From Candidatus Woesearchaeota archaeon (GTDB lineage: Archaea > Nanobdellota > Nanobdellia > Parvarchaeales > Parvarchaeaceae): a stretch of DNA of 53,708 bases. The notes beneath the pieces were generated by a model. That model saw nothing but the letters and a program-made list of their open reading frames with translations, searched no databases and was not told the origin of the DNA. Positions 9,712 to 34,843 of this stretch are shown piece after piece. Both the position numbers and the translations under genes were made by a program. The DNA is taken from the NCBI GenBank assembly GCA_964641875.1, contig CAZXLU010000002.1, positions 1 through 53,708 of the forward strand, in the 5' to 3' direction. How positions within the stretch are numbered: the stretch's first letter is position 1; each line of letters opens with the position of its first letter.

Positions 9712-10111
9712 GGAGAGAATATTATACAGACTTAAAGAATTAGAATATTATGTTAACTTACTTGAAAAGATTATACCTACAAAGAGCAGCGAATACGTAA
9801 AATCTGATGAAGTAAAAAAAGCGGCAATAGAAAGATACTGTCAGCTAATAAGTGAGGCTCAGTTAGATATTTGTAAGGAAATTTACAAAAGTATGAATTT
9901 GCCCCCGCCTAATTTAAATGAGTCCATATTCCAAAAACTTGAAGACAAAATTGACTCTAAAACCCTGTCGAAAATAATAAAATTAAGAGAAGTAAGAAAT
10001 GAGCTTGTACATGCATATTCAAGTTTTGACGACTTAAAATTGTTCAATGCCTTAATGCCAAATGATTACATGCACGATTTTATAAAGGAAATAAAGAGTT
10101 TAATCTTATAA
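9704..10111 (+). CDS. HEPN (DUF86) toxin
   Basis: R-x4-H motif RNELVH (nt 9995-10012) in a 135-aa all-helical protein immediately downstream of an MNT gene. Confidence 0.8.
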   Translation: MDKERILYRLKELEYYVNLLEKIIPTKSSEYVKSDEVKKAAIERYCQLISEAQLDICKEIYKSMNLPPPNLNESIFQKLEDKIDSKTLSKIIKLREVRNELVHAYSSFDDLKLFNALMPNDYMHDFIKEIKSLIL

Positions 10112-10166: not shown

Positions 10167-12359
10167 TCACTCTAAAGGAGGCAAACCCTTCCTTTCCCTT
10201 ATCTGTTTAACTACAGTTGGGTAAATATCCCTTGGCAACCTTCTAAACGTTTCCCCTGCTAATGACCAAGAACCTCTACCTTCTGTTCCAGATCTAAGTT
10301 CATTGGTGAAGTTAAAGGTGGATGAAACTGGCATCTCTGCAGTTATAACCGCCTTGTTTCCATCGTCTTTTACATTGTCTATTATCCCTCTTTTTGATTG
10401 TATAAGGGCGCTTATATTACTTAGATTCGCCATTGGCAGGTCTACTCTTATTACCTGTATAGGTTCTAAAAGTATTGGATTAGCTTGCAACACAGCATCT
10501 TTTATAGCATCTCTTACTGCGGGTATAACCTGAGCGGGACCGCGGTGTATTGCGTCTTCATGTAAAACCATATCAGTCAATGTTATCTTAACTCCGCGTA
10601 CTTCTTCTTTTGCTTGAGGCCCCTCTTTCATAACTTCATTGAAAGATTCTATGCACATCTCTATAACTTCACCTATGTGTATTATACCTCTTGTTCCATC
10701 AACAAGCATGTTTTCTCCATAGATCGCTGCTATCCTTTTGACTTCGTCTCTGTCCATTCCTGCTTTCATAAGTAAATCCATATTTTCTGGTGTAAAAGCT
10801 TTTATTTTTCCAGTAGGCATACTCTCATCTGCCAAAGCCTCAATAACTTCTTGAGATAATGGCTCAGCATATAAATAGAAACGGTTATGTTTGTTGGGAG
10901 ATTTGCCCTCTACTATAGGGCTCTTTGCAGATATGCTTTCTTTGTAAACTACTATTGGTTGTGAGCTGACTATGTCTATCCCATATGTCCTCCTTAGCTT
11001 GTCTTCAACTATCTCCAAGTGTAGTGTCCCTAATCCTGCTATAAGATTTTCTCCAGTTTCGTGATTTATTGAGACTTTTAAAGCAATATCGTATATCTCC
11101 TGTTCTCTTAAAGCCTGTATAAGTTTGGGTAAATCTTTAGGATTTTTAGGTTCTATAGCCTTCACAACTACCGGCTGAAGGGAATGTTTTATGGGTTCGA
11201 AAGGCGTTATATCTTGTTTTTCAACTCCACTGAGTGTTTCACCAGATATTATGTTCTTTAATCCGGCCATTCCTATCTGGTTACCTGCAAGTGCACTTTC
11301 TACCTGAAAACGCTGAGGGCCTTTCCATATGTATATTTGTTGTACTTTGTTTACTTGTTTATTGTTAACAAGAAATACATCCTGTCCACGTGCTATCTTT
11401 CCAGAAAATATTCTTCCTATTGCGATTTCCCCGGCTTGCGGGTCAATTTCTATATTTGTAACGGAAATCATCAATGGGCCGTTTGGATCACAGGCTATCA
11501 ATGATTTACCAACATCGCTGTCCAATTCACCATGCCATACTATCGGTATTCTATACTTTTGGGCTTCTACTGGATTTGGTAAATGTTCTATAACCATGTC
11601 TAAAAGCACTTTATGTACTGGAGTCTTCTTTGAAAGCTCTTTTATTTTTTCTTTGTCATTAGAAGTATAAGTTTCATAAACATCTTTGAATGACAAACCA
11701 GTTTCCTTCATTCTTTTGAACGATAAGGCCCAATTGTCTCTTGAAGCACCGAAAGCCACAGTATTGTCCTGAACAGAAACTTGCCATTTTCCCTTTACAT
11801 CTTCAGGTGCCAAGTCGTTTATGAAGGAATTTATTTGAGTTATCAACTTAACAAGATGTTTCTGCATATCTTCTGGGGAAAAACGCATCTCTGTTATAAG
11901 CCTGTCTATTTTATTAATATATAGTATAGGTTTTACTTTATCTCTAAGCGCTTGTTTAAGGACCATCTCAGTTTGTGGCATTACTCCCTCAACAGAATCC
12001 ATTACTACTATGGCACCGTCTATTGCCCTTATAGCTCTTGTTACATGCCCTCCAAAGTCAACGTGTCCAGGAGTGTCTATTAAATTTATTAAATATTCAT
12101 CGTTTTCATTTCTCTCATAAACCATGTTTACATTGGATGACTTAACTGTCATCTGCCTTTCCTGCTCTACTTTTTCAGAGTCTAAGTAAAGCTGTTTTCC
12201 GGCTTTTTCTTCAGAAAGCATACCACATCCTGCTAACAGGGTATCGCAGGTTGTTGTTTTACCGTGATCAACGTGCGCTATTACACCGATGTTTCTTATT
12301 CTTTCTTGCTGATTCATCAGCCTCATCACTTTCTCTGTCAAAGATTCTTTTTCAGGCAT
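10167..12359 (-). CDS. fusA: Translation elongation factor 2 (aEF-2)
   Basis: G-domain motifs AHVDHGKTT, DTPGHVDF and NKIDR. Diphthamide-site motif HEDAIHRG (His codon at 10545-10547). GAGG lies 10 nt upstream of the ATG. Confidence 0.97.
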   Translation of the reverse strand: MPEKESLTEKVMRLMNQQERIRNIGVIAHVDHGKTTTCDTLLAGCGMLSEEKAGKQLYLDSEKVEQERQMTVKSSNVNMVYERNENDEYLINLIDTPGHVDFGGHVTRAIRAIDGAIVVMDSVEGVMPQTEMVLKQALRDKVKPILYINKIDRLITEMRFSPEDMQKHLVKLITQINSFINDLAPEDVKGKWQVSVQDNTVAFGASRDNWALSFKRMKETGLSFKDVYETYTSNDKEKIKELSKKTPVHKVLLDMVIEHLPNPVEAQKYRIPIVWHGELDSDVGKSLIACDPNGPLMISVTNIEIDPQAGEIAIGRIFSGKIARGQDVFLVNNKQVNKVQQIYIWKGPQRFQVESALAGNQIGMAGLKNIISGETLSGVEKQDITPFEPIKHSLQPVVVKAIEPKNPKDLPKLIQALREQEIYDIALKVSINHETGENLIAGLGTLHLEIVEDKLRRTYGIDIVSSQPIVVYKESISAKSPIVEGKSPNKHNRFYLYAEPLSQEVIEALADESMPTGKIKAFTPENMDLLMKAGMDRDEVKRIAAIYGENMLVDGTRGIIHIGEVIEMCIESFNEVMKEGPQAKEEVRGVKITLTDMVLHEDAIHRGPAQVIPAVRDAIKDAVLQANPILLEPIQVIRVDLPMANLSNISALIQSKRGIIDNVKDDGNKAVITAEMPVSSTFNFTNELRSGTEGRGSWSLAGETFRRLPRDIYPTVVKQIRERKGLPPLE

Positions 12360-13346: not shown

Positions 13347-13431
13347 GCAGAGATAGCGAAGCCTGGTCAAACGTGCTGGCTTCAGGGGCCAGTGGCTTAG
13401 GCCTTCGGGGGTTCAAATCCCCCTCTCTGCA
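13347..13431 (+). tRNA. tRNA-Leu (anticodon CAG), type II with long variable arm, no encoded CCA
   Basis: Manual fold: acceptor GCAGAGA/TCTCTGC, anticodon stem CTGGC/GCCAG with loop TTCAGGG, variable stem GGC/GCC, T-arm GGGGG-TTCAAAT-CCCCC, discriminator A. Confidence 0.9.
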
Positions 13432-14812: not shown

Positions 14813-15493
14813 ATGAAAGTCGGGGCTTTGTTTACTGGGGGTAAGGATTCAACATATTCTGCGTTTCTAGCGTCTAAAGAGAATGAGTTAGCATGTTTAA
14901 TGAACATGTATTCAGAAAATAAGGATTCTTACATGTTTCATACCGTCGGAAATGAACTTTTAAATCTTCAAGCTAAGGCCATGTCAATTCCTCTAGAGAG
15001 ATATGCGACAAAGGGTTTAAAGGAGGAAGAATTAGGTGATTTGAAAGATTTTATAAAGAAAATGAAGGAAAAATACGACATAGGTGGGATTGTTAGCGGA
15101 GCTCTAGCAAGCGAATATCAATACAAGAGAATAAATTCCATTTTGGAAGAGCTTTCACTTAAATCAATAACACCATTATGGCACATTGATGTTAAAAAAT
15201 ACATAAGTGATTTTATAAATGCAGGTTTTAAGGCTGTGATAGTTTCTGTTTCTGCCGATGGACTGGATGAAACTTGGTTAGGAAAAGAGATAAACAATGA
15301 GAATCTGCAAAAACTTATTGAACTAAGCGAAAAATATCGCTTTCATCTTGGTTTTGAAGGAGGAGAAGCGGAAACAGCTGTTCTTGATGGGCCAAACTTT
15401 AAATACTCTATAAACATAACCGGAAGCAAGATAATAAACGAGGGCGGAAAGTATTATTTGGAGATTAAATCCATTGAAACTTCAAATAAATAG
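14813..15493 (+). CDS. Diphthine-ammonia ligase-like ATP-pyrophosphatase (Dph6 N-terminal domain / MJ0570 family)
   Basis: PP-loop KVGALFTGGKDS and C-terminal GFEGGEAETAVLDGPNF. Confidence 0.78.
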   Translation: MKVGALFTGGKDSTYSAFLASKENELACLMNMYSENKDSYMFHTVGNELLNLQAKAMSIPLERYATKGLKEEELGDLKDFIKKMKEKYDIGGIVSGALASEYQYKRINSILEELSLKSITPLWHIDVKKYISDFINAGFKAVIVSVSADGLDETWLGKEINNENLQKLIELSEKYRFHLGFEGGEAETAVLDGPNFKYSINITGSKIINEGGKYYLEIKSIETSNK

Positions 15494-17158: not shown

Positions 17159-19048
17159 TCACTTAAGGCGAAGCGCATCAAGTATATGGGGGACATTAGT
17201 TTCCACCCTGAAACGCCTTCTAAGATATCTTGAAAGATCCAAAGTTTTACTTTCTTCTCCATGCCCTATTATTATTTTTCTAGGCCTTGGTCTTATGTCG
17301 TTTACAAATCTTTCCAGTTGCTTTCTGTCAGAATGACCGGAAAAGCCCTCTATAGAATAAACCAGAGCATTTACGGTGAAGTGTCTCAATTTTCCATTCA
17401 ATTCTATATCCACTTCTCTACCGCCATTTTGTATCGTTCTCCCGAGGGTTCCTACACCTTGGTAAGAGACCAAAACAATAGCATTTCTTTCATCTTCGCA
17501 AAGATTTGCAAAATAACTTACAGATGGGCCACCATTTAGCATACCTGATGTTGCAAGAATTATTGCCGGGCCGCTGGAAAGAACCTGTTGTCTTTCTTCT
17601 TCACTTACAGTATGCTTGAATATTGGGGAAAGAAATGGGTTGTTGTTATGCCCTATTATTCTCTTTCTGGTTTCACTGTTCATAAATTCTGGATATACTG
17701 TATATATTGCCGTTACATCCCACAGCATACCGTCCACTATTACCGGCGCTTCAGGGAGAAGACCATACCTTTGCCACTCCTCGATTAAAAGCATCAATTC
17801 TTGGGCCCTACCAACGCCAAGAACAGGGACCAAAACTTTTCCGTTATTTGAGATGGTTTTACTTATTATGTCCAGGAAAAATTGTTCTGTTTCATCTCTT
17901 TGTGGCTGTACATCTGATTCACCACCATATGTACTTTCCATTATAAGCGTTTCAACGCGTTCAAATTGCGTTTCCGCTTTGTTCAGAGTTTTAGAGTTAT
18001 CATACTTGAAATCTCCAGTGTAAAGGACATTGTAAAAACCGTTTCCTATATTCAAATGCACCATGGCAGAGCCAAGTATATGGCCGGCGTTATGCAGTGT
18101 TATCCTTATATCTGGGGTTATGTCTGTTACTTCGTGAAATGGAAGTATTATGGAATGCTTAAGCATTTCCTTAACGTCATCCAAGTCAAATAACAGTTTA
18201 CCGTTTGTTTTGCTTGCAAGATTTATGTAATCTAAATGTAGTAAAGTCATAACATCTCTCGTAGGAGCAGTTGAGTAAACAGGGCCCTTATACCCATATT
18301 TATAAAGCGCTGGGAGAAAACCACAGTGATCTAGATGGCTATGCGTTATAACTACTGCATTAAGCTTTGATATGTCAAATTCCGGAGCATCAACTCTTGG
18401 AACAGGTTCTTTTGGGTTGCTAACATCAACTCCAACGTCTAATAAAATCGAACTTATCGGCGTTTGTACTAGAACAGCTGATCTACCAACGTGTCTGAAC
18501 GCTCCTAGAGCGCTTATTCTGACCCAGTATTTATCGTCAACCTCAAATTTAGAATTGTATATATTTTCCCCTATCTCATTGAGCATTTTTCTTCTAAATT
18601 TAGAGTTATCATATAACATCTCTCTTATAGCCTTTACTATATCTGATTTTATCAATGGGGATCTAGCAAGCACTACTGACCAACCAGTTTCTTCCCTTAT
18701 CCTGTTTATTCCTGCTTTCCTTTCTCCACTTATTATCTCAGGCCTTTCCGCTTCGATGGTCACAAGGCTTCTTGACTCATCAAACCAAAAATCAGTTATC
18801 TGCGCTTCTTCAAAGCCCATATTCCTTATTTTCTTCTCAGCTTCTTTTGGATTCATTAGTAGCGAAGGGTCTAATCTAACTTCTATTCTTTTCTTTTCTT
18901 TGTTAACTAGGTTTCTTATTATTTCTGAGCTGTTAAGTAAAAAATTTCTGTTTTTTGTATATATAACGACATTAGAAACCTCAAAATCTATATCCTCTAT
19001 TACAGAGTTATCACCTATAAAATCCTTTATATCTTTTTTTATATCCAT
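17159..19048 (-). CDS. aCPSF1 beta-CASP ribonuclease (KH domains plus metallo-beta-lactamase)
   Basis: N-terminal KH-like region, HSHLDHCG motif and beta-CASP C-terminal region GHSD...IIIGHGE. Length is 629 aa. Confidence 0.9.
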   Translation of the reverse strand: MDIKKDIKDFIGDNSVIEDIDFEVSNVVIYTKNRNFLLNSSEIIRNLVNKEKKRIEVRLDPSLLMNPKEAEKKIRNMGFEEAQITDFWFDESRSLVTIEAERPEIISGERKAGINRIREETGWSVVLARSPLIKSDIVKAIREMLYDNSKFRRKMLNEIGENIYNSKFEVDDKYWVRISALGAFRHVGRSAVLVQTPISSILLDVGVDVSNPKEPVPRVDAPEFDISKLNAVVITHSHLDHCGFLPALYKYGYKGPVYSTAPTRDVMTLLHLDYINLASKTNGKLLFDLDDVKEMLKHSIILPFHEVTDITPDIRITLHNAGHILGSAMVHLNIGNGFYNVLYTGDFKYDNSKTLNKAETQFERVETLIMESTYGGESDVQPQRDETEQFFLDIISKTISNNGKVLVPVLGVGRAQELMLLIEEWQRYGLLPEAPVIVDGMLWDVTAIYTVYPEFMNSETRKRIIGHNNNPFLSPIFKHTVSEEERQQVLSSGPAIILATSGMLNGGPSVSYFANLCEDERNAIVLVSYQGVGTLGRTIQNGGREVDIELNGKLRHFTVNALVYSIEGFSGHSDRKQLERFVNDIRPRPRKIIIGHGEESKTLDLSRYLRRRFRVETNVPHILDALRLK

Positions 19049-26617: not shown

Positions 26618-28975
26618 ATGAACAAATTGCTTTTAACCGTTGTATCTATAGTTTTTATAGTTTTTTTATTTTCTAGTGTAAATGCACAGGCTCCCCCACC
26701 TACAACTTCAGTTTCTTCAAATGGGTTTTCTTTAGGGCCTTTATCAAATGTAAATTCTTCAATTTACGCAGCTTTCTTTGCGATAGTCCTTTTCATTGTA
26801 TTTGCTATAGCTTTAGACAGAACACAGCTTTCCAGCGGTAGAATAGCAATTTCACTAATTTTGGGGCTAATAACTTTTTTTGTGCTGTATACTAATAGTA
26901 CATTACTGCATTTCTTCTTGAATACTTTCATAGTGTTAGCATTTATAGCATTGATACTTGGAATGCTTGCGGCAGTTAAATCCCCCAGGTCTATAAAACT
27001 TATCGGTTTGGTGGTTGCTTTATTTTTAATATACATCCTCTTTGCAAACGATTCTGGGCTTACTAATTTTATAGATTCATTTTTACATATTGATATACTT
27101 CAGATACTGCCACTAATATTAGGGGCAGTAGCTATTCTCACCATAATTATTCTTATTTTAAGGGCTATGAGAAATCATAAAAGTATAGGATTACGCGCGG
27201 TTCTTGCATTTATAATTTTAATGATGATAGTTTTGCTTATACCAGGTTTTGCAAGTTTCTTGTTTAATCCAGTAATATTGATAATCTTGACTATTCTGAT
27301 AATTCTTGTTATAATAGCGATTTTCTACTTTGGTAGGCGTCATCCAAGAGGTCCTAGAGATATAAATGGATATAAAAAACCTTCAAAAGAGGCAAAATTG
27401 CAAAATAAAGTTTTATCATCAATAAATGATAGGAAGGCGGCAAATGCTGATGTATTAAAGGAATATAAAGAATTAATTAATAAAGGAAATTTAACGCCGA
27501 ATGAGCAGCTAAGAGTAGCACAGCTTAAAAATAAACTGGCAAATGAAGCGTGGAAGAATGTAGCTGACAGAACAAAGCTTACACAAGTTCAGTACTCTAA
27601 AAGCCAGCTTTCCAATAATAGGGACTTACAAAAACTAACAGGTTTCTTCTCAAGAAATCAGGCTTTGAGAGATTTGAAATCAGAAGCAAAGAAAAACTAT
27701 AAATTATCATGGTCAGAGAGGAGGGCGCTAAAAAACAGGGAAAGGTTTATAAAGAACTCTGAGAATCCTCAAGCAGGCGATATATTTGATCTAGCAAATT
27801 CAGTTAGAAATGGTAGTTTAGGCAATATCCCTTCAGAGAAGGCTGCGAGGAAGATATTTGAAAGGAGGCTATCCAAAGAAGCAAGGAATAAAGACGTATC
27901 AAGTTTGCTGAATGAAAGAAATAAAATTTTAGATCCATCGCTTAATTTATCAGATTCTACGAGACGTAAACTTTTAGCAAAGCTTGATAAAGACCTACGT
28001 AAAGTTTCTCCCAATATATCTCCTGATAAAATAAATCAGAAAAGGCTTATAAAGGAACAAAAAGAACAGTTAAGACAGGAGATGCTTGAAGATAAAAGAC
28101 TGCAAGAAGCGCAATTGGAAGCTGCTAGGAAAAATGCTGAAAAAGAGAGGCAAAGAATGTCAGAAGAACAATCTAAATCAGAAGGTGGAGCTCCTAATTC
28201 AAGCAGTGGGCCTGGTAACAAAGATAATGAGCATTTCATAATACCAGCAACAGGATTAAAGAGCGGCAGAAGCTTTTTCAGGAAAGGGATTAAAGGAGTC
28301 AAAGGCGGACCATTCGCTAAAAAAGCAGACATAGAACAATTCAAAAATGATAACCCTCCACCATCTCTGTTTCTAGAGGTTGGGGGTATAAATAATGGAA
28401 TGGAAAGAAATGGAATGTCAGAAGAACAATCTAAATTAGCAGAAGCAGGTAAGCAGCAAGAAGAATTAGTGGAAAATAAGTCAGAAAATTTAATAGGATT
28501 TGAAACTGAAAGAGGCTCTAAATACACATATTCAGATAATAAAGTATTAAGAAATAAGTATGATGGTACAAAAGATGAATGGACGTTAAATGTTTTTGTA
28601 CCACCATACGAAAAATTAGATGAAAAAACAAAGGATAAACTTAGGAGGGTGTATAACGTAGATAATAAGGCCTTATACGAGAATCTTCTAGCGGATTTTG
28701 TGTATGATTATTCGCCTCGTATTGGCTATTTTGAAAACGGGGAATTTCATCCAATTAAAAGTGATGAAGATGCAAAAGGAAAAGATATTTACTTTGTAGC
28801 TTTATTTAAAGATGGCGATAAGAAAGGTAAATCAGCATTTACTGTTAAAGTAGATAAACAGCCTGAGGTCGGTTATTTCCCTTATCAAGAAAATCATCTA
28901 GAAGCAGAGAAAACCCACAAGTACTTAAAGCATTTAGGAGATAAAGTATTAAAACTCATAAAGAAGAACAAATAA
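26618..28975 (+). CDS. Orphan 785-aa protein: signal peptide, polytopic membrane domain, long basic coiled-coil, Gly/Pro-rich linker, C-terminal globular domain
   Basis: Signal peptide ending VNAQA-PPPTT, about 7 TM helices to aa 240, and a K/R/E/Q-rich heptad-like region at aa 260-510. C-terminal domain FETERGSKYTYSDNK...VGYFPYQENH. No family motif recognised. Confidence 0.7.
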   Translation: MNKLLLTVVSIVFIVFLFSSVNAQAPPPTTSVSSNGFSLGPLSNVNSSIYAAFFAIVLFIVFAIALDRTQLSSGRIAISLILGLITFFVLYTNSTLLHFFLNTFIVLAFIALILGMLAAVKSPRSIKLIGLVVALFLIYILFANDSGLTNFIDSFLHIDILQILPLILGAVAILTIIILILRAMRNHKSIGLRAVLAFIILMMIVLLIPGFASFLFNPVILIILTILIILVIIAIFYFGRRHPRGPRDINGYKKPSKEAKLQNKVLSSINDRKAANADVLKEYKELINKGNLTPNEQLRVAQLKNKLANEAWKNVADRTKLTQVQYSKSQLSNNRDLQKLTGFFSRNQALRDLKSEAKKNYKLSWSERRALKNRERFIKNSENPQAGDIFDLANSVRNGSLGNIPSEKAARKIFERRLSKEARNKDVSSLLNERNKILDPSLNLSDSTRRKLLAKLDKDLRKVSPNISPDKINQKRLIKEQKEQLRQEMLEDKRLQEAQLEAARKNAEKERQRMSEEQSKSEGGAPNSSSGPGNKDNEHFIIPATGLKSGRSFFRKGIKGVKGGPFAKKADIEQFKNDNPPPSLFLEVGGINNGMERNGMSEEQSKLAEAGKQQEELVENKSENLIGFETERGSKYTYSDNKVLRNKYDGTKDEWTLNVFVPPYEKLDEKTKDKLRRVYNVDNKALYENLLADFVYDYSPRIGYFENGEFHPIKSDEDAKGKDIYFVALFKDGDKKGKSAFTVKVDKQPEVGYFPYQENHLEAEKTHKYLKHLGDKVLKLIKKNK
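28155..28178 (+). repeat. 24-nt perfect direct repeat, copy 1 (gaatgtcagaagaacaatctaaat)
   Basis: Identical to 28413-28436. In-frame, encodes MSEEQSK. Confidence 0.9.
28413..28436 (+). repeat. 24-nt perfect direct repeat, copy 2
   Basis: Identical to 28155-28178, offset 258 nt (86 codons). Confidence 0.9.
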
Positions 28976-29312
28976 ATAATCAAAAGAGATAATCCCAACT
29001 AAATTGTAGATCTCGCTGTTCCAAAAATTTTCCTGGTAAGTAAGGCAAAATAACCCTAGAAACCGGCAGACATAACAGGAAATTGTGATCGAGGGCTTAA
29101 AAAAGCACAATAGAAAGCGCAAGAAAGCTAGATTACCTTGAATCTGACAGTGCATTTGATAAAAAGATAGCTTAATGTCTCACAAAAGAATTAAAAAGAT
29201 CGATTAGTGTTTGTAAAAAATTACCACAAAGAAATACCAAATAATAGACAAGAAGCAAAAGGAATATTTATTTATTCCACCATTTTATTCTTAGGTTATT
29301 ATACTTTACTTA

Positions 29313-29385
29313 GGGCTCGTGGCGCAATTGGCAACGCGCTCCCATGGCATGGGAGAGACTACGGGTTCAAATCCCGTCGAGTCCA
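29313..29385 (+). tRNA. tRNA-Ala (anticodon GGC), no encoded CCA
   Basis: Manual fold: acceptor GGGCTCG/CGAGTCC with the G3:U70 Ala identity pair, anticodon stem CTCCC/GGGAG with loop ATGGCAT, T-arm ACGGG-TTCAAAT-CCCGT, discriminator A. Confidence 0.9.
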
Positions 29386-29445
29386 TTAATTTTATTGTTT
29401 AGTTATTACTATGGTAGAAAAGCAATGTTTTAGATTATTTTTAAA

Positions 29446-29982
29446 TTAATTGCTTATTTTTTCTATCATTCTTATTTCAGTAGCTCTTGTTGGGTAAATT
29501 TTGCTTAGTTTTTTGTGCAATTGGTTTTGCACCTTCCCGGCAAGAACATCTAATACTAATTCCTTTAGATTTCTTTTATCTGCAATAGAATCTAGGAATT
29601 CATTTGCTTCTTCTCTTACGAATTTTTTATAGCGATTTTCAGCCTTGTTTATCATTATAACGGCTTTTATAGCAAATGTTTTTTCATTAATCTTTAATTT
29701 TCTTACAACTTCTATTTTAGATGAATTGTGCCTCACCATCCTACCAACTTGGTCTCTTGAAAGAACTAATGATTCTAGTTGGGCATTCGCTGAGTTTTCA
29801 GCAGATGATATTACCCTGAAACCTAGTTTAAATCCAGGTTTTGTTTTTATTTCTTTTATTTCATTGGCGTTTATAAGGATTTTTCTGTTAGTTATATTGG
29901 TTTCATTTCCATATATGGAACCTATCTCCGTATTGTCAAAATCAATAGCTCTAACCTTGTACCATGAATTTGGTTGATTCAT
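29446..29982 (-). CDS. rps3ae: 30S ribosomal protein S3Ae (eS1)
   Basis: WYKVRAIDFDN start and overall eS1 pattern. There is a 4-nt overlap with S15 upstream. Confidence 0.82.
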   Translation of the reverse strand: MNQPNSWYKVRAIDFDNTEIGSIYGNETNITNRKILINANEIKEIKTKPGFKLGFRVISSAENSANAQLESLVLSRDQVGRMVRHNSSKIEVVRKLKINEKTFAIKAVIMINKAENRYKKFVREEANEFLDSIADKRNLKELVLDVLAGKVQNQLHKKLSKIYPTRATEIRMIEKISN

Positions 29983-30404
29983 AACTTAACCACCAATCTT
30001 GCAGATTCTAAAGAATATTTATAATCTACTGGTAAAACTTTGTTTTCTTTGTAATAATTTATCAATCTCTTTATTCTATTTTCAAGAACAACCAAACTTC
30101 TTATAGAGTGTTTGTCTTTTTTCTGTTTGTCTACATGCATGTGTAATTTTACCGCCTTTTTGTATAATGCTATCAAATCCTCAGGCAATTCTTCATTTAT
30201 CTCTCTTTCCTTTAATATCTTGCTGATATTCTTTTTTGTTATCTCTTTTACCGAAGGGATACCATACTGGTCTCTTAATATTATGCCTATTTGTGATTTG
30301 GTCATGCCTTTTTTGTATTTGTTAATTATAAGCTGTTCCACCTCTTCAGGCTTATAATTCAGCCAGTGCGGCACGAACCTATTTTTAACGTTAATAACTT
30401 TCAT
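29979..30404 (-). CDS. rps15: 30S ribosomal protein S15 (uS15, S13e type)
   Basis: PHWLNYKPEEVEQLI...GMTKSQIGIILRDQYGIPSVK and C-terminal HSIRSLVVLENRIKRLINYY. Confidence 0.9.
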   Translation of the reverse strand: MKVINVKNRFVPHWLNYKPEEVEQLIINKYKKGMTKSQIGIILRDQYGIPSVKEITKKNISKILKEREINEELPEDLIALYKKAVKLHMHVDKQKKDKHSIRSLVVLENRIKRLINYYKENKVLPVDYKYSLESARLVVKL

Positions 30405-30987
30405 TGTACCTTCTCCTCCTTTCTATATCTTTAAGATGAGTATCTATTCCTTTAAATTCTTTTCTAATATATATTTTGTATTCATCTAAGAATTTGGAGT
30501 ACGCTTCTTTGTATAAGTCATTATGCTTTGATTTTAATGCGTTTTTAAACAAAAACAAATCACTTGCAATATCCTCGTCTTTTCCAGAATAGTAGCTTAA
30601 TCCAAAATCTATTAAGAATATCCCTTCCTTATTTTTAACCATATTTGCAGTGGTTAAATCACCGTGTATTACTCCCACATTGTGCATTTCTGCTACAACT
30701 CTACCGATTTCACTTGAATCATTTATTTCAAATTGTTCAGATAATCTTTTACCGATTATCTTTTCCATGTTTATTTCTTTTTTGTTTTCTTCTATGCTAA
30801 TCGGTTTCGGAACTTTAACCCCATTTTCATACAGTTTTTTCATTATGTTGAACTCTGCTTTTGTTCTTCTTTTTCTCAATTTTTCATCTAAGTCTTTTAT
30901 TCTGTATCCTTTTCTTTTTCTTATCTTTACTATCGTGTTTCCTTTGTCCATTATAACTGCTTCAGATCCAATTGCAAGAACTTTCAT
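30391..30987 (-). CDS. bud32: KEOPS kinase/ATPase Bud32
   Basis: GSEAVI...KIRKRKGYRIKDLDEKLRKRRTKAEFNIMKKL, HGDLTTANM and IDFGLS motifs. Confidence 0.85.
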   Translation of the reverse strand: MKVLAIGSEAVIMDKGNTIVKIRKRKGYRIKDLDEKLRKRRTKAEFNIMKKLYENGVKVPKPISIEENKKEINMEKIIGKRLSEQFEINDSSEIGRVVAEMHNVGVIHGDLTTANMVKNKEGIFLIDFGLSYYSGKDEDIASDLFLFKNALKSKHNDLYKEAYSKFLDEYKIYIRKEFKGIDTHLKDIERRRRYNESY

Positions 30988-31679
30988 GATTTAATGAACA
31001 CCCTATCCCCATCATCCAATTTATGTGATAGTGCGACTCTTTGGCCCTGGAATTTTGCGCTGCTGCCGAATATCACAGCATAGGAGTTTTTTTTAACATT
31101 AAGATGCAATTTTTTTATTAAATCATTTATGGTATCTCCTCTTTTCATTGCCACGGCATCTGTTGAGTTTTCAGTGTATACTCCTATTACACCGAAATCC
31201 TTTAAAGCATCCTCCAAATTAATTTTTTCTGTAACCCTTTGAAAATTACAGAATTTTTCAATATTGTTTTTGGATAGTATTATCTCACTCTGAAGCAACA
31301 GATCTTTGTTTTTTTCAGGGTCGTGAATAACTATCATTTGTATTTGTATGTTGTTTATTTTTACTATTCCATATAATATATTTTCTATTCGCGTAAGTTT
31401 GAACATCTTTAGTATAGTATCAAAATTATAGCCTACTAATGAAACTCTAGGCCATCTTTTTCTTATTGCGGCTGTTTTATGTACAACTGGTTTGTGGCTC
31501 GCTTCTTTTCTTAAAAGCGAAAGCCGTCTTTTTAATGATCCAAATTCTCTATCAGTGCCTTTATGTTTTGGTAATATGACCATCATTCTTTTTAGAATTC
31601 TCTCTTTCTCCTCTAAATCCCTTTCCTTGCTGTATCTCTCCTCCAGCTCATAATATTCCTGCGGTGCATTCATTGGCAT
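30984..31679 (-). CDS. Truncated DRG/Rbg-like protein: DRG N-terminal helix, degenerate G domain, C-terminal TGS domain
   Basis: N-terminus ...LPKHKGTDREFGSLKRRLSLLRKE resembles the DRG NKATE.H.G.LKAKLA.LR segment. RVSLVGYNFDTILKMF replaces RVALVGFPSVGKSTLL, so there is no GKS. C-terminal GDTINDLIKKLH...AVIFGSSAKFQGQRVALSHKLDDGDRVFI is a DRG-type TGS. Confidence 0.65.
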   Translation of the reverse strand: MPMNAPQEYYELEERYSKERDLEEKERILKRMMVILPKHKGTDREFGSLKRRLSLLRKEASHKPVVHKTAAIRKRWPRVSLVGYNFDTILKMFKLTRIENILYGIVKINNIQIQMIVIHDPEKNKDLLLQSEIILSKNNIEKFCNFQRVTEKINLEDALKDFGVIGVYTENSTDAVAMKRGDTINDLIKKLHLNVKKNSYAVIFGSSAKFQGQRVALSHKLDDGDRVFIKS

Positions 31680-31680
31680 A

Positions 31681-32643
31681 TTATCTGTACATTATCTCCA
31701 TAGTGTCAGTTCTGAACCTAGGTTTTATATCTAAGCTAATCTGTTTGTAATCTTTCATCAAGTAACCGGTATAGGCTATCATAGCGCCGTTATCCCCGGC
31801 AAATTCCATAGGTATCGGGGAAAATTTAGCTTTTCTCTCATTGCACATTTTTTTACCCATCTCGTTTATCCTCTTATTAGCCGCAACTCCTCCGGTTATT
31901 ACTAAACTGTCTTTTTTACAGTAAGCCATTGCTCTTTCACTAGCCTCTATTAGCATTGAAAATACTGTTTCTTGCATAGAAAAAGCAATGTCCTCGTTTT
32001 TTTCTTTTCCAATGATCTTTGATATAAATGTCTCTATACCGGAAAAGCTTACATCCATTCCTTTTATACTGTATGGGATTTCAATGTATTTTTTACCATT
32101 CAATGCAAGTCTCTCAATTTCAGGGCCTGCGGGGAAAGGGATATTCATCCTTCTGCCTATTTTATCTATTAAGTTCCCTACACCTATATCCTGCGTTTCT
32201 CCGAATATTATATATCTACCATTATAATATGTTATTATCTGCGTGTTACCTCCGCTAACATATAACATAACTGGGTCATCCATCTTTGTATACAACCTAG
32301 CTATCTCTATATGGGCTATGCAGTGATTTACACCGATAAGCTTTTTATCGTATTTTTTTGAAAGAAATATAGATAATTGATAGCCTACTTTCAATGCTGG
32401 AGCTATCCCGGGGCCCTGTGAGAATGCAAAGAGGTCAATGTCCTTTAATTTTAAATTCGTCTTCTGTAATGCTTTTTTAATTAACATTGGGGCAACTTTA
32501 TAATGGTGTAGAGCTGCTTCATTTGGTATTATACCTCCGGATGAAGGTTTAAGTGTATCTTTTTCATTTGCAATAACTTTGTTATCTTCTGTTATACCAA
32601 CACCAAAAGTATGTGCAGTGCTTTCTATTCCAAGAGTATACAT
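31681..32643 (-). CDS. kae1: tRNA N6-adenosine threonylcarbamoyltransferase Kae1
   Basis: MYTLGIESTAHTFGVG start, HCIAHIE metal motif and GGVAANKR. The ATG at 32643 is chosen because the longer ORF to 32715 would overlap S27ae by 50 nt. Confidence 0.9.
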   Translation of the reverse strand: MYTLGIESTAHTFGVGITEDNKVIANEKDTLKPSSGGIIPNEAALHHYKVAPMLIKKALQKTNLKLKDIDLFAFSQGPGIAPALKVGYQLSIFLSKKYDKKLIGVNHCIAHIEIARLYTKMDDPVMLYVSGGNTQIITYYNGRYIIFGETQDIGVGNLIDKIGRRMNIPFPAGPEIERLALNGKKYIEIPYSIKGMDVSFSGIETFISKIIGKEKNEDIAFSMQETVFSMLIEASERAMAYCKKDSLVITGGVAANKRINEMGKKMCNERKAKFSPIPMEFAGDNGAMIAYTGYLMKDYKQISLDIKPRFRTDTMEIMYR

Positions 32644-32665
32644 TTTAGAATAAAGCAATGTAGCT

Positions 32666-32854
32666 TTATTTATTTTTTTCTTTCTTAATAAACTCTGTGT
32701 AACCGCAATGGCCACATGTCATTCTATCTTGATGCTGTGCAAGAAAAGTGCCTTCTCCACATTTTGGACAGGATCTATTCTTTCTTTCTAGAGTACTCCC
32801 ATTCACATTGTAAAGTTTCCAGATTTCACTCTTTTTTTGGCTCTTCTTTTCCAT
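32666..32854 (-). CDS. rps27ae: 30S ribosomal protein S27ae (eS31)
   Basis: Zinc ribbon [27 protein letters not shown]. Confidence 0.85.
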
Positions 32855-33128
32855 TTTTTATCCCATTCTTTTCAAGTATATACCTTGGAAGCACTTTTAG
32901 TGCAGTATTCTTGTCTTTATAAATGTGCGCAATTCCCTTTGCTTCGCTTTTTCCGTATATGTTCTTTATTGTATATATCAATATATTTTCATCATTAACT
33001 TCTTTTTCCAGTTCTTTTTTAACGTCATCCAATTTTGCATTCTCCCCACTTTTAAGTTTTACAGTAAAGTTTATGACTTTTCTATCTAAATAAACATTTT
33101 CATTTTCTGAGTCTATCTTTATTTCCAT
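32826..33128 (-). CDS. rps24e: 30S ribosomal protein S24e (eS24)
   Basis: Pattern [14 protein letters not shown]...[33 protein letters not shown]. Confidence 0.85.
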
Positions 33129-33314
33129 TTATCCCACCACAATAGCATATCTTCCGTTTCTGCTTATTTTCATTTCTTTTCCTATTAACGATTTTCCGCT
33201 ATCTGAAATTATTACAACTCCTTTCCATTTTGATGATAAATCATCACTTCCACATGCCGGGCATTTCTTTTCATCCGTTAAATAATTACATACTCTGCAT
33301 GCCTTAACTACCAT
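33129..33314 (-). CDS. spt4: Transcription elongation factor Spt4 (RpoE'')
   Basis: KACRVCNYLTDEKKCPACGS...KWKGVVIISD...GRYAIVV. Confidence 0.87.
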   Translation of the reverse strand: MVVKACRVCNYLTDEKKCPACGSDDLSSKWKGVVIISDSGKSLIGKEMKISRNGRYAIVVG

Positions 33315-33315
33315 A

Positions 33316-33849
33316 TCACTTTTTATTTGTCACCTTCTTTTTAGCACCTAACTTGCCTAATCCTATAGAACGCATAGTAAGTCCAACTTTCATGATCCCT
33401 TTTGTACTAACAGCAATTACACTTGCTAAAACAGTATCTCCTGTTTTTATACTCAATTTTGTTCTTCTTCCTGTTAAGGAATTTTTTGAGAAGTCAACAA
33501 AGTCATCCATAGTTTGTGATATATGTACAAGTCCATCAATCGGGCCTATATTAACAATAGCCCCCATCTCACTCACATTTGTAACTTGGCCTTTTATAGT
33601 TTCATGTAGTATAGGCGTGTAAGCTATTACCCTAAATACAGTATCATAGTATATTGAAGCATCATTTGGAATAATTATCCCCTCTTCTATTTTATCAATG
33701 CTTATTAACCCAATTATTAGGGCTTTTTCATCTATTATCCTACCTATATAGTCGTGTCTTATTATCTCTCTAACTGCTTCATTTCTATCTCCTCCTAATT
33801 TAGTAGGCTCTACTCTAACCTTATCCCTCAGCGTTACAATTTCGTACAT
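33316..33849 (-). CDS. rpoE: DNA-directed RNA polymerase subunit E' (Rpo7) with S1 domain
   Basis: MYEIVTLRDKVRVEPTKLG start and an S1-like GQVTNVSEMGAIVNIGPIDGLVHISQ. Confidence 0.9.
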   Translation of the reverse strand: MYEIVTLRDKVRVEPTKLGGDRNEAVREIIRHDYIGRIIDEKALIIGLISIDKIEEGIIIPNDASIYYDTVFRVIAYTPILHETIKGQVTNVSEMGAIVNIGPIDGLVHISQTMDDFVDFSKNSLTGRRTKLSIKTGDTVLASVIAVSTKGIMKVGLTMRSIGLGKLGAKKKVTNKK

Positions 33850-33931: not shown

Positions 33932-34843
33932 ATGCCAAAAAAGATGAAAAAAGCGTTGATAATAGGAGCAGGCGCACTTGGCTCAGCATTCCTTTCAAGT
34001 ACTAAGGATGAATTCGATGAAATTACAATATTTGACGGAGATGTAATTTCAAAGGAGAACCTTAAAAATCAGCCTTTTTATAGAGATGCAGATTTTAATA
34101 AGATAATCTCAAAGGCCAATTTTGCTGCAGAAAAGATGAATTCTATTAATCCAAAGATAAAATATTATTCATACAATAAATATTTTACAAAAGAAAATAT
34201 TGAGTTTGTAAAAGACTATGATATAGTGCTTGATTTTACGGATAATATAAAAAGCAGATTGATAATTAATAAGGCAGTTGTAGAATTTGGCAAACCGACA
34301 GTTTTTGCATCAATAAATGAAAAAGAGCTTTTTCTTTTTTTCTATAAAGATACAAAGGCCTGCTTTAATTGTTTGATAAGAAACGCCAATGGGAGAATAA
34401 GAGAAGGTTGTGAATCACTTGTGTTACCCCCAAGTGAAAAGACAATTGATTTTATGCATGATAAAATAACAGATTTTATAATTGGCAAGATAAACGGCGG
34501 CGAACTTCAAGTTTTTAGTTTATATAATAAAAAGAATATTAATATAAAAATTAAAAAAGATGAGAACTGTGAGGAATGTTCTCTTCACTCTTTCAAAATA
34601 GCTAGCAATAGCGTTGTACAACTGTGTGCTTCAGGGTTAAAATTTTCTTTAGGAAGAGAAATTGATTTTAGACTACTAAAAGAGGAATTTAAAGATGGAA
34701 GAATTATAGATGAATACTTCATTTATAGAAATCGCGAAAAATCGGTAATAATATCAAGCAAAGGGGATTTTTTATTTACTGGTTATCAAATTCAGGAAGC
34801 AAAGCACCTAATTTCCATTCTTTTTGATAAGTATTCTAAATAA
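33932..34843 (+). CDS. ThiF/MoeB/HesA-family E1-like adenylyltransferase with two CxxC pairs and a ~90-aa C-terminal extension
   Basis: ALIIGAGALGSAF dinucleotide loop, DGDVISKENLKNQ (D.D.v..sNL.RQ-like), CFNC...CEEC. Confidence 0.72.
   Translation: MPKKMKKALIIGAGALGSAFLSSTKDEFDEITIFDGDVISKENLKNQPFYRDADFNKIISKANFAAEKMNSINPKIKYYSYNKYFTKENIEFVKDYDIVLDFTDNIKSRLIINKAVVEFGKPTVFASINEKELFLFFYKDTKACFNCLIRNANGRIREGCESLVLPPSEKTIDFMHDKITDFIIGKINGGELQVFSLYNKKNINIKIKKDENCEECSLHSFKIASNSVVQLCASGLKFSLGREIDFRLLKEEFKDGRIIDEYFIYRNREKSVIISSKGDFLFTGYQIQEAKHLISILFDKYSK

What the first reader, a model, noticed from the sequence alone, without database searches (positions are those of the whole stretch)
30984..31679. 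Truncated DRG-like pseudo-GTPase (TGS domain retained, P-loop lost) inserted between kae1 and bud32
Kae1 and Bud32 are usually adjacent or fused in archaea. Here a 231-aa ORF sits between them, 1 nt after the kae1 stop and with a 4-nt overlap into bud32.

What it retains from DRG/Rbg GTPases:
- N-terminus: HKGTDREFGSLKRRLSLLRKE.
- C-terminus: a DRG-type TGS domain, AVIFGSSAKFQGQRVALSHKLDDGDRVFI.

What it has lost:
- The G1 position reads LVGYNFDTILKMF, with no GKS.
- The G3-like segment reads IQMIVIHDPE, with no DxxG.
- About 130 residues of the G domain are missing.

A nucleotide-independent TGS adaptor translationally coupled to the KEOPS core would be a new accessory component of the t6A or ribosome-associated machinery.
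Basis: partly seen in the sequence, partly recalled or inferred. Interest (0 to 1): 0.62.

Follow-up and report, generated by a model that had tools for sequence, protein, structure and literature searches.

The report
P-loop-less DRG between kae1 and bud32
A small, strongly conserved gene in acid-mine "ARMAN" archaea is a cut-down ribosome-binding GTPase (DRG) that has lost every GTP-binding element but kept its two RNA/partner-binding ends, and it always sits between the two core genes of the tRNA-modifying KEOPS complex, so it is a natural test of what a DRG does without GTP.

Summary
A 231-aa ORF (30984..31679, minus strand) lies 1 nt after kae1 and overlaps bud32 by 4 nt (ATGA).

It descends from archaeal DRG/Rbg: profile-profile probability is 99.9% (E 1e-36), collinear over the whole canonical protein, and Rbg1/Rbg2 are the top fold matches. 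It is not a diverged Cgi121 (probability 0.2%).

- **Retained:** the N-terminal HTH, a small beta-sheet remnant of the G domain, and the C-terminal TGS domain.
- **Lost:** the P-loop, switch I, most of switch II, the whole S5D2L insert, and the G4-G5 half of the G domain.

It is a working gene. dN/dS is about 0.04, the same as kae1 and ribosomal protein S15. It occurs in 33 Parvarchaeales species genomes, including ARMAN-4 and ARMAN-5, and is flanked by kae1 and bud32 in all 38 family loci with enough flank. None of the 51 other DRG-like loci has either gene nearby.

Function is inferred, not shown. The most likely role is a GTP-independent ribosome-binding DRG remnant. A KEOPS accessory role is not excluded, but the operon-wide tight gene packing and the lack of rate covariation with Bud32 weaken it. 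I could not test whether these genomes also carry a canonical DRG or a Cgi121. I rate it a new variant of a known kind, of moderate interest.

The parts
30984..31679 (-). X: 231-aa P-loop-less DRG-derived protein (CDS including the stop codon)
   Evidence: ORF. hhalign against canonical DRG: prob 99.94%, E 1.2e-36, 230 columns. Foldseek top hits are Rbg1 4a9a/7rr5 and Rbg2 7nrc. dN/dS 0.038.
31500..31679 (-). X residues 1-60: DRG-type N-terminal helix-turn-helix (MPxNAPxEYY...LPKHKGT...)
   Evidence: 42% identical to residues 1-43 of full-length DRG P0050. Three helices in the AF2 model. 80% mean column identity within the family, 20 invariant columns, 40% identity to long DRGs.
31428..31499 (-). 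X residues 61-84: basic linker, the family-specific invariant K-x-W-P-R motif, and strand beta1 ending in GY where canonical DRG has G-x-P-N-x-GKS (P-loop deleted)
   Evidence: Alignments A2 and hhalign. K74, W76, P77, R78 and Y84 are invariant in 22 of 22 sequences. Residues 62-69 have pLDDT below 50.
31194..31427 (-). X residues 85-162: remnant of the G domain (alpha1, beta2-beta5, two short helices). It lacks switch I, most of switch II, the S5D2L insert and the alpha4-beta6-G5 segment.
   Evidence: Gaps in A2 and hhalign. Secondary structure of the model. Least conserved part: 53% within the family, 17% against long DRGs. Of NKxD only the Asp persists in the family consensus (D154 in 20 of 22; N in the window protein).
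30987..31193 (-). X residues 163-231: DRG-type TGS (beta-grasp) domain with the KFQGQRV motif
   Evidence: PF02824, E 8.6e-6, above the cut-off. phmmer to Rbg2, Rbg1 and DRG1 TGS. Foldseek to 2eki, rmsd 2.1 A. 41% identity to long DRGs.
31681..32643 (-). kae1 (320 aa from the ATG at 32643; the mechanical ORF extends to a GTG at 32715)
   Evidence: TIGR03722, E 1.3e-127. Orthologues are 319-320 aa.
30391..30987 (-). bud32 (198 aa); its ATG overlaps the X stop codon (ATGA)
   Evidence: TIGR03724, E 5.4e-54. The 4-nt overlap is conserved in 32 of 38 loci.
29446..30404 (-). Ribosomal protein genes S15 (29979..30404) and S3Ae (29446..29982), the downstream end of the same tightly packed operon
   Evidence: Pfam. 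bud32 overlaps S15 by 14 nt in 32 of 37 loci.
32666..33849 (-). Upstream operon genes: rpoE' (33316..33849), spt4 (33129..33314), S24e (32826..33128), S27ae (32666..32854)
   Evidence: Pfam. The same order is seen in most family loci.

Best explanation
**What it is (shown).** X is the Parvarchaeales form of the archaeal DRG/Rbg ribosome-associated GTPase.
- It descends from a canonical DRG by internal deletions. These removed the P-loop, switch I, most of switch II, the S5D2L insert and the G4-G5 half of the G domain.
- What is left is the N-terminal HTH, a five-strand scaffold, and the C-terminal TGS domain.
- It is kept under strong purifying selection.
- It has been fixed between kae1 and bud32 since the common ancestor of the order, inside a transcription/translation operon: rpoE'-spt4-S24e-S27ae-kae1-X-bud32-S15-S3Ae.

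**How it most likely works (inferred).**
- With no Walker A motif it cannot bind or hydrolyse GTP in the canonical way, so it is not a switch.
- It most likely acts as a constitutive, nucleotide-independent ribosome-binding factor that uses the two ends selection preserves best. In yeast Rbg1 the HTH contacts the large subunit, the TGS contacts 18S rRNA helix 5 and docks the protein partner, and both domains are essential.
- The shrunken G fold would serve only as the spacer holding the two ends in register.
- Its place in the operon would tie its dosage to ribosomal proteins and KEOPS.
For: **Ancestry.**
- hhalign of the family against canonical DRGs gives prob 99.94%, E 1.2e-36, with columns 1-230 aligned to 5-390.
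- Foldseek top hits are Rbg1 and Rbg2 at E 8e-9 to 4e-7, followed by weaker matches to other GTPase folds.
- Pfam TGS is above its cut-off.

**Loss of motifs.**

**Functional gene.**
- Median dN/dS is 0.038, against kae1 0.033, S15 0.031 and bud32 0.113.
- Length is fixed at 229-232 aa from 82% down to 49% identity, and 222 and 212 aa in the two more divergent syntenic members P0051 and P0052.

**Where selection acts.** Within-family conservation is HTH 80%, K-x-W-P-R/beta1 86%, TGS 71%, G remnant 53%. The protein is basic, pI 9.7, like canonical DRGs.

**Literature.**
- Deleting the HTH or the TGS inactivates Rbg1, while deleting S5D2L is tolerated at 30 C. The TGS mediates partner binding (PMC3510508).
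- On the ribosome the HTH and G domain bind 60S, S5D2L binds the A-site tRNA, and the TGS binds 18S h5 (bioRxiv 10.1101/2020.07.06.190082).
- Archaea generally carry one DRG (bioRxiv 10.64898/2026.05.13.724932).

**Miniaturisation in DPANN.** The closest relatives are 262-293-aa DRGs of Aenigmarchaeota and Nanoarchaeota that already lack S5D2L but keep the P-loop.

**Exploratory.** X's strongest rate covariation is with ribosomal protein S3Ae (partial r 0.61) and not with Bud32 (0.08).
Against: - GTPase-dead Rbg1 (S79N) does not rescue yeast, and GTPase activity is reported as absolutely required (PMC3510508; bioRxiv 10.64898/2026.05.13.724932). A nucleotide-free DRG therefore cannot run the canonical cycle and must work differently.
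- The S5D2L domain that touches the A-site tRNA is gone.
- There is no direct evidence of ribosome binding.
- The invariant placement between kae1 and bud32 (38 of 38 loci) is not explained by this model beyond co-expression.
- I could not establish that Parvarchaeales lacks a second, canonical DRG, so orthologue versus neofunctionalised paralogue is open.
- The S3Ae covariation may be an artefact of two fast-evolving proteins.
Confidence: 0.55

Rival explanations
1. X has been recruited as a KEOPS accessory subunit. Its TGS (beta-grasp) domain would bind the tRNA acceptor or 3' CCA end, or dock onto Bud32/Kae1. It would thereby recruit tRNA in the way Cgi121 does, or tether KEOPS to the ribosome.
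For: - Perfect and exclusive linkage: kae1-X-bud32 in 38 of 38 family loci, and 0 of 51 other DRG-like loci near kae1 or bud32.
- The kae1-X spacer is 1-8 nt in 35 of 37 loci, and the ATGA overlap with bud32 is present in 32 of 38.
- Loss of the P-loop and the relocation coincide in one monophyletic clade.
- Cgi121's job is to bind the tRNA CCA tail (PMC11621456).
- TGS domains of RelA/SpoT recognise the tRNA CCA end (my own knowledge, not tested here).
- The TGS of Rbg1 is a protein-docking module (PMC3510508).
- A beta-grasp Ubl domain is fused to Cgi121 in Thaumarchaea, and Cgi121 was reported missing from Nanoarchaeum (PMC2948915).
- No Cgi121 or Pcc1 gene lies in the 53.7-kb window.
Against: - The linkage is a single evolutionary event.
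- Tight packing is operon-wide. bud32 overlaps S15 by 14 nt, so it does not mark a KEOPS-specific coupling.
- X shows no rate covariation with Bud32 (0.08) and only weak covariation with Kae1 (0.27), while the Kae1-Bud32 control gives 0.62 (exploratory).
- There is no sequence or fold similarity to Cgi121 or Pcc1.
- In Rbg1 the TGS contacts rRNA, not tRNA (bioRxiv 10.1101/2020.07.06.190082).
- Other P-loop-less DRG derivatives exist away from kae1.
- Absence of Cgi121 from Parvarchaeales was not established (reached Methanococcales only).
Confidence: 0.2
2. X is a neofunctionalised paralogue that coexists with a canonical DRG elsewhere in the genome. It would act as a nucleotide-independent competitor or regulator of that DRG, for example by occupying the same ribosomal site.
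For: - Whether a second DRG exists could not be tested.
- X keeps the DRG surfaces (HTH, TGS) that would allow competition.
Against: - Archaea generally have a single DRG (bioRxiv 10.64898/2026.05.13.724932).
- These are genomes of about 1 Mb under reductive evolution (general knowledge).
- No second Parvarchaeales locus appeared among the 80 best of 541 DRG-like hits in GTDB genomes, although the scan patterns were family-biased.
- There is none in the window.
Confidence: 0.15
3. X still binds a nucleotide through a non-canonical site and is a cryptic GTPase or ATPase.
For: The Asp of G4 (NKxD) is retained in the family consensus, D154 in 20 of 22 sequences.
Against: - No Walker A motif in 51 members.
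- The switch I Thr and the G5 segment are deleted.
- The G3 DxxG motif is absent.
- The window protein itself has N at position 154.
Confidence: 0.03
4. X is a decaying pseudogene or an ORF-calling artefact.
For: The ARMAN-5 copy (L025) has a frame disruption near codon 22.
Against: - dN/dS is 0.038 over 31 pairs, equal to kae1.
- The ORF is intact and of fixed length in about 50 protein clusters and 33 species genomes.
- The AF2 model is confident, pLDDT 84.
Confidence: 0.01

Closest known systems
Canonical archaeal/eukaryotic DRG (Rbg1/Rbg2, DRG1/2; COG1163, K06944)
   Same: - Collinear homology from end to end.
- Same N-terminal HTH with the PKHKGT motif.
- Same DRG-type TGS with the K-F-x-G-Q-R-V motif.
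- Basic pI.
- JGI already labels family members 'ribosome-interacting GTPase 1'.
   Different: - 231 aa against 360-397 aa.
- No G1, G2, G3 or G5, and only the Asp of G4.
- No S5D2L domain.
- Has an invariant K-x-W-P-R motif before beta1.
- Fixed between kae1 and bud32, whereas the canonical and intermediate DRG loci examined are not near KEOPS genes.
Shortened P-loop-bearing DRGs of other DPANN lineages (e.g. P0053 at 276 aa and P0054 at 293 aa from Aenigmarchaeota; P0088 at 262 aa from Nanoarchaeota)
   Same: - They are the nearest relatives by HMM score.
- They already lack the S5D2L insert and often NKxD.
- Same HTH and TGS.
   Different: - They keep GxxxxGKS and switch I.
- P0053 is not near kae1 or bud32.
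Other P-loop-less DRG derivatives (P0063, P0091, P0099, P0101, P0157)
   Same: Similar size (207-245 aa), with HTH and TGS retained and Walker A lost.
   Different: - Each has P-loop-bearing nearest neighbours, for example P0063 next to P0056, so these are independent losses.
- The three examined (P0063, P0101, P0091) are not next to kae1 or bud32.
Pseudo-GTPases of eukaryotes (GTPase folds that no longer bind nucleotide, e.g. CENP-M and the p190RhoGAP pseudo-G domains). Comparison from my own knowledge.
   Same: A GTPase fold kept as a scaffold after loss of the G motifs.
   Different: Different GTPase family and domain of life. Here the erosion includes large deletions, not only substitutions.
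Cgi121 (KEOPS tRNA-recruiting subunit) and the thaumarchaeal Cgi121-Ubl fusion
   Same: - Genomic association with the KEOPS core.
- A beta-grasp domain is associated with KEOPS in Thaumarchaea (PMC2948915).
- A possible CCA-end binder by analogy.
   Different: No sequence or fold similarity: hhalign prob 0.2%, no PF08617 hit, no Cgi121 among the fold matches.

Membership tests
DRG/Rbg GTPase (Obg-like, COG1163) | Whole-length profile homology to DRG | tested here: met
   hhalign prob 99.94%, E 1.2e-36, 230 aligned columns spanning 5-390 of the canonical profile. 1151 HMM hits, all DRG-like by domain layout.
DRG/Rbg GTPase (Obg-like, COG1163) | N-terminal helix-turn-helix | tested here: met
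   Residues 1-43 are 42% identical to P0050. Helices 7-18, 22-35 and 43-60 in the model.
DRG/Rbg GTPase (Obg-like, COG1163) | G1 Walker A, GxxxxGK[ST] | tested here: not met
   Absent in the window protein and in 51 of 51 family members. A 3-residue deletion plus substitutions at the aligned site.
DRG/Rbg GTPase (Obg-like, COG1163) | G2 (switch I Thr) and G3 (DxxG) | tested here: not met
   Switch I (about 9 residues) is deleted. The G3 site reads IVIHDPE and the switch II loop is shortened by about 12 residues.
DRG/Rbg GTPase (Obg-like, COG1163) | G4 NKxD and G5 SA[KL] | tested here: not met
   Only the Asp survives in the family consensus (D154 in 20 of 22; N in the window). The segment carrying G5 is deleted.
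DRG/Rbg GTPase (Obg-like, COG1163) | S5D2L insert (PF16897) within the G domain | tested here: not met
   No PF16897 hit. The whole insert is a gap in A2 and in hhalign.
DRG/Rbg GTPase (Obg-like, COG1163) | C-terminal TGS domain | tested here: met
   PF02824 at 26.1 bits, above the 22.2 cut-off. 2eki rmsd 2.1 A.
DRG/Rbg GTPase (Obg-like, COG1163) | GTP binding/hydrolysis and ribosome association | not testable with these tools
   Needs biochemistry.
KEOPS subunit (Cgi121 or Pcc1) | Sequence or fold similarity to Cgi121 or Pcc1 | tested here: not met
   hhalign against M. jannaschii Cgi121 gives prob 0.2% (the query was validated against PDB). No PF08617 or PF09341 hit. No such fold match.
KEOPS subunit (any new accessory) | Conserved gene linkage with the KEOPS core | tested here: met
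   kae1-X-bud32 in 38 of 38 family loci with flank. It is a single clade.
KEOPS subunit (any new accessory) | Evolutionary rate covariation with Kae1/Bud32 | tested here: inconclusive
   Partial r: X-Bud32 0.08, X-Kae1 0.27, control Kae1-Bud32 0.62, X-S3Ae 0.61. The method is crude and pairwise distances are not independent.
KEOPS subunit (any new accessory) | Physical association with Kae1/Bud32, or an effect on t6A synthesis | not testable with these tools
Needs pull-downs and a t6A assay.
Pseudo-GTPase (nucleotide-free GTPase fold) | GTPase-type fold retained while G motifs are lost | tested here: met
   After the DRGs, the model matches PH1320 GTPase and G-alpha chains weakly. Motifs are lost.
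Pseudo-GTPase (nucleotide-free GTPase fold) | Demonstrated absence of nucleotide binding | not testable with these tools
   Needs binding assays.

The most novel reading that the evidence does not exclude
X is a genuine sixth kind of KEOPS-associated subunit in Parvarchaeales. It would be a DRG-derived, nucleotide-free HTH-TGS adaptor made stoichiometrically with Kae1 and Bud32. It would either replace Cgi121 as the tRNA (CCA-end) recruiter or physically couple t6A synthesis to the ribosome.
Probability: 0.15. Interest if true: 0.85.

Novelty: new variant of a known kind. Interest (0 to 1): 0.5.

Why it matters
- **DRG biology.** DRG/Rbg proteins are universal in archaea and eukaryotes, yet their mechanism is only partly understood, and in yeast their GTPase activity is reported as indispensable. 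A whole archaeal order keeps, under selection as strong as on Kae1, a DRG with no GTP-binding elements but with intact HTH and TGS ends. This natural minimal construct separates GTP-independent DRG functions (binding, tethering, partner docking) from the GTPase cycle.
- **Genome reduction.** The G domain of DRG has eroded repeatedly in small-genome archaea, stepwise: first S5D2L, then the P-loop.
- **KEOPS.** If the invariant kae1-X-bud32 arrangement reflects a physical partnership, it would be the first link between a ribosome factor and the t6A machinery, and a new way for KEOPS to recruit tRNA.
- **Annotation.** Current labels ('ribosome-interacting GTPase 1', 'TGS domain-containing protein') are respectively misleading and uninformative.

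Tried and rejected
- **Diverged Cgi121 or Pcc1:** rejected.
- **Overlooked intact GTP site:** rejected. No Walker A anywhere, and the 'GKS' in some members sits in the TGS domain as in canonical DRGs.
- **Pseudogene:** rejected by dN/dS.
- **Transcript evidence for co-transcription:** three metatranscriptome runs from the same mine-drainage study laid nothing on the operon. This is uninformative.
- **Cgi121 in Parvarchaeales:** a search seeded with M. jannaschii Cgi121 reached Methanococcales only, so presence or absence is undetermined. The window itself has no Cgi121, Pcc1 or second DRG.
- **Second DRG in Parvarchaeales genomes:** not resolvable. The GTDB scan returns only the best 80 of 541 hits and its patterns were family-biased.
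- **RNase HII-DRG adjacency as a clue to the relocation:** seen in L001 and in one Parvarchaeales sub-lineage only, too thin to build on.
- **Literature:** no paper was found that describes a DRG-like gene between kae1 and bud32 or a P-loop-less archaeal DRG.
- **Rate covariation:** kept as exploratory only.
Full report
**1.
- The minus-strand ORF 30984..31679 encodes 231 aa.
- It starts one base after the kae1 stop. Its TGA overlaps the bud32 ATG as ATGA.
- The neighbours are Kae1 (TIGR03722, E 1e-127) and Bud32 (TIGR03724, E 5e-54).
- The mechanical kae1 ORF (344 aa, GTG start) is probably 24 codons too long. Orthologues are 319-320 aa, and the ATG at 32643 gives 320 aa.

**2. Ancestry is settled: X is a cut-down DRG.**
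- Pfam finds only a TGS domain (res 165-229, above the curated cut-off).
- The best sequence matches among solved structures are yeast Rbg2, Rbg1 and the human DRG1 TGS domain. The N-terminal helices also align weakly to the Rbg HTH.
- An AlphaFold2 model built from a 22-sequence family alignment is confident (pLDDT 84). Its top Foldseek hits are Rbg1 (4a9a, 7rr5; E 8e-9 to 3e-8) and Rbg2 (7nrc), followed by weak matches to other GTPase folds. No Cgi121 or Pcc1 appears.
- A profile-profile comparison of the family with 16 canonical 360-397-aa DRGs gives probability 99.94% and E 1.2e-36. 230 of 231 columns align collinearly to positions 5-390.
- The same comparison with M. jannaschii Cgi121 (query validated against PDB) gives probability 0.2%.

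**3. Anatomy.**
- Retained:
  - The HTH (res 1-60, MPxNAPxEYY...LPKHKGT).
  - Strand beta1, then alpha1 and beta2-beta5 with two short helices (res 78-162).
  - The TGS domain (163-231, KFQGQRV).
- Deleted or destroyed:
  - The P-loop (G-x-P-N-x-GKS becomes GY plus a 3-residue gap).
  - Switch I with the G2 Thr (about 9 residues).
  - G3 and much of switch II (about 12 residues).
  - The entire S5D2L insert (about 75-85 residues).
  - The alpha4-beta6-G5 segment (about 35 residues).
- Of NKxD only the Asp persists in the family consensus (D154 in 20 of 22). The window protein has N there.
- No GxxxxGK[ST] occurs in 51 family members.
- A family-specific K-x-W-P-R motif immediately before beta1 is invariant.
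- Total loss is about 160 residues, roughly half of it the S5D2L insert.

**4. It is a working gene confined to one archaeal order.**
- Forty-nine protein clusters of 229-232 aa at 49-82% identity were found, labelled Parvarchaeota where a source gives a name.
- A scan of one genome per GTDB species found the family in 33 species genomes. These include Ca. Parvarchaeum acidiphilum ARMAN-4, ARMAN-5, Ca. Acidifodinimicrobium, and many MAGs labelled Nanoarchaeota or Parvarchaeota.
- The window itself comes from a mine-drainage community.
- Median pairwise dN/dS is 0.038. For comparison: kae1 0.033, S15 0.031, bud32 0.113, S3Ae 0.069.
- Conservation is concentrated in the HTH (80% mean column identity), the K-x-W-P-R/beta1 segment (86%) and the TGS (71%). 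The G remnant (53%) looks like a scaffold. The protein is basic (pI 9.7), like canonical DRGs.

**5. Synteny.**
- Every family locus with sufficient flank has kae1-X-bud32-S15-S3Ae, 38 of 38. This includes the two most divergent members (P0051 at 43% and P0052 at 34-37% identity). Most are preceded by rpoE'-spt4-S24e-S27ae.
- None of the 51 other DRG-like loci has kae1 or bud32 within about 4 kb.
- Junctions are tight and conserved. The kae1-X spacer is 1-8 nt in 35 of 37 loci, and the X/bud32 ATGA overlap is present in 32 of 38.
- The same is true of bud32/S15, a 14-nt overlap in 32 of 37. The packing is a property of the whole operon and does not specifically couple X to KEOPS.

**6. Wider picture: repeated erosion of DRG.**
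- An exhaustive HMM search found 1151 relatives with lengths from 207 to 397 aa.
- Most 262-335-aa forms keep the Walker A motif.
- The nearest relatives of X are short P-loop-bearing DRGs of Aenigmarchaeota (276 and 293 aa) and Nanoarchaeota (262 aa) that already lack S5D2L.
- In a neighbour-joining tree the syntenic P-loop-less proteins form one clade (bootstrap 69%; 85% without P0052).
- Other P-loop-less forms (P0063, P0091, P0099, P0101, P0157) each sit next to P-loop-bearing sequences, so those are independent losses. The three of them examined (P0063, P0101, P0091) are not near kae1.
- In Parvarchaeales, P-loop loss and relocation between kae1 and bud32 go back to one ancestor. This is one event, so the coincidence is not statistical evidence of a functional link.

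**7. What the literature says about the retained parts.**
- In yeast Rbg1, deleting the HTH or the TGS abolishes function. Deleting S5D2L is tolerated at 30 C. The TGS is the docking site for the partner Tma46 (PMC3510508).
- On the ribosome the HTH and G domain bind the 60S subunit at the sarcin-ricin loop, S5D2L touches the A-site tRNA, and the TGS binds 18S helix 5 (bioRxiv 10.1101/2020.07.06.190082).
- GTPase-dead Rbg1 does not rescue yeast, and archaea generally have one DRG (bioRxiv 10.64898/2026.05.13.724932).
- X therefore keeps the two accessory domains that are indispensable in Rbg1, has lost the one that is conditionally dispensable, and has lost the activity that is indispensable in yeast.

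**8. The mechanism I commit to (inferred).** X is a constitutive, GTP-independent ribosome-binding DRG remnant. It uses the HTH and TGS as its working surfaces and the shrunken G fold as a spacer. Its dosage is tied to ribosomal proteins and KEOPS by its place in the operon. My confidence is about 0.97 in the descent from DRG and about 0.5 in the functional reading.

**9. The main rival is that X has become a KEOPS accessory.**
- For:
  - The exclusive linkage.
  - Cgi121 recruits tRNA by its CCA tail (PMC11621456).
  - TGS domains of RelA/SpoT recognise CCA ends (my own knowledge).
  - The TGS is a protein-docking module in Rbg1.
  - A beta-grasp Ubl domain is fused to Cgi121 in Thaumarchaea, and Cgi121 was reported missing from Nanoarchaeum (PMC2948915).
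- Against:
  - The single origin.
  - The operon-wide packing.
  - The exploratory rate-covariation test. The known partners Kae1-Bud32 give partial r 0.62. X-Bud32 gives 0.08, X-Kae1 0.27 and X-S3Ae 0.61. This method is crude and may be biased by fast-evolving proteins.

**10. Limits.**
- I could not determine whether Parvarchaeales genomes also hold a canonical DRG or a Cgi121. The window has neither. The Cgi121-seeded search reached Methanococcales only. The genome scan reports only the best 80 hits.
- No transcript data map to the operon.
- No paper was found describing this protein or arrangement. Databases label it 'TGS domain-containing protein' or, misleadingly, 'ribosome-interacting GTPase 1'.

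**11. Verdict.** This is a real, conserved, strongly selected P-loop-less derivative of DRG, fixed between kae1 and bud32 in Parvarchaeales. It is a new variant of a known kind. Interest is moderate (0.5). It would be high if the KEOPS partnership, which I put at about 0.15-0.2, proves true.

Noticed in passing
P0063 (L009), P0091 (L011), P0099, P0101 (L010), P0157: Other 207-245-aa DRG derivatives without a Walker A motif exist outside the Parvarchaeales clade. Each is nearest to P-loop-bearing DRGs, so G-domain erosion of DRG seems to have happened several times independently. The three looked up (P0063, P0101, P0091) are not near kae1 or bud32.
   Followed up: partly
L046-L089 (genome-contig scan): Many bacterial MAGs carry DRG-like ORFs, mostly about 329 aa. 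Taxa include Dictyoglomaceae, Bryobacteraceae/Terriglobia, WOR-3, Thermotogae, Deltaproteobacteria and Eisenbacteria. Their N-termini are 30-49% identical to the DRG-type HTH and beta1 of X. DRG is usually described as archaeo-eukaryotic.
   Followed up: no
L025:4001-4688 (Ca. Parvarchaeum acidophilus ARMAN-5): The ARMAN-5 copy of X is out of frame after about codon 22, while the rest matches at 77% in another frame. This is either a sequencing or assembly error in the 2010 assembly or a real disruption.
   Followed up: partly
window 31681-32715: The kae1 ORF as mechanically called (GTG start, 344 aa) overlaps the S27ae gene. Orthologues are 319-320 aa, so the real start is probably the ATG at 32643.
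   Followed up: partly
L001:5293-7194; L004:284-3023; L006:1528-4300; L042: RNase HII lies immediately upstream of a full-length DRG in L001. It also lies two genes upstream of X (RNase HII, 4HBT thioesterase, kae1, X) in one Parvarchaeales sub-lineage. This could be a remnant of an older RNase HII-DRG linkage, or chance.
   Followed up: partly
window 9208-10111: Adjacent nucleotidyltransferase (Polbeta/NTP_transf_2, 9208-9711) and HepT-like RNase (9704-10111) genes overlap by 8 nt. This is the layout of an MNT-HepT (HEPN) toxin-antitoxin pair.
   Followed up: no
window 26618-28975: A 785-aa ORF with no Pfam hit. It has a hydrophobic multi-pass N-terminal third, then a long Lys/Glu-rich region containing a repeated MSEEQSK segment. 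It occupies the slot next to the operon's end, where relative L003 has an unrelated 358-aa gene.
   Followed up: no
window 33932-34843: A ThiF/E1-like gene is divergently adjacent to the rpoE' end of the operon. The same neighbour is conserved in L003, L005 and L007. E1/Ubl systems have been linked to tRNA modification in archaea (PMC2948915).
   Followed up: no
window 29313-29385 and 13347-13431: tRNA-Ala(GGC) lies just beyond the S3Ae end of the operon on the opposite strand, and tRNA-Leu(CAG) lies at 13347-13431. The mechanical 60-aa ORF 29207-29389 overlaps the tRNA-Ala gene and is spurious.
   Followed up: no
window 10167-12359, 14813-15493, 17159-19048: Other translation and RNA-processing genes in the window: aEF-2, diphthamide synthase (which modifies aEF-2), and the aCPSF1/FttA termination factor. 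aEF-2 is the only canonical translational GTPase in the window.
   Followed up: no
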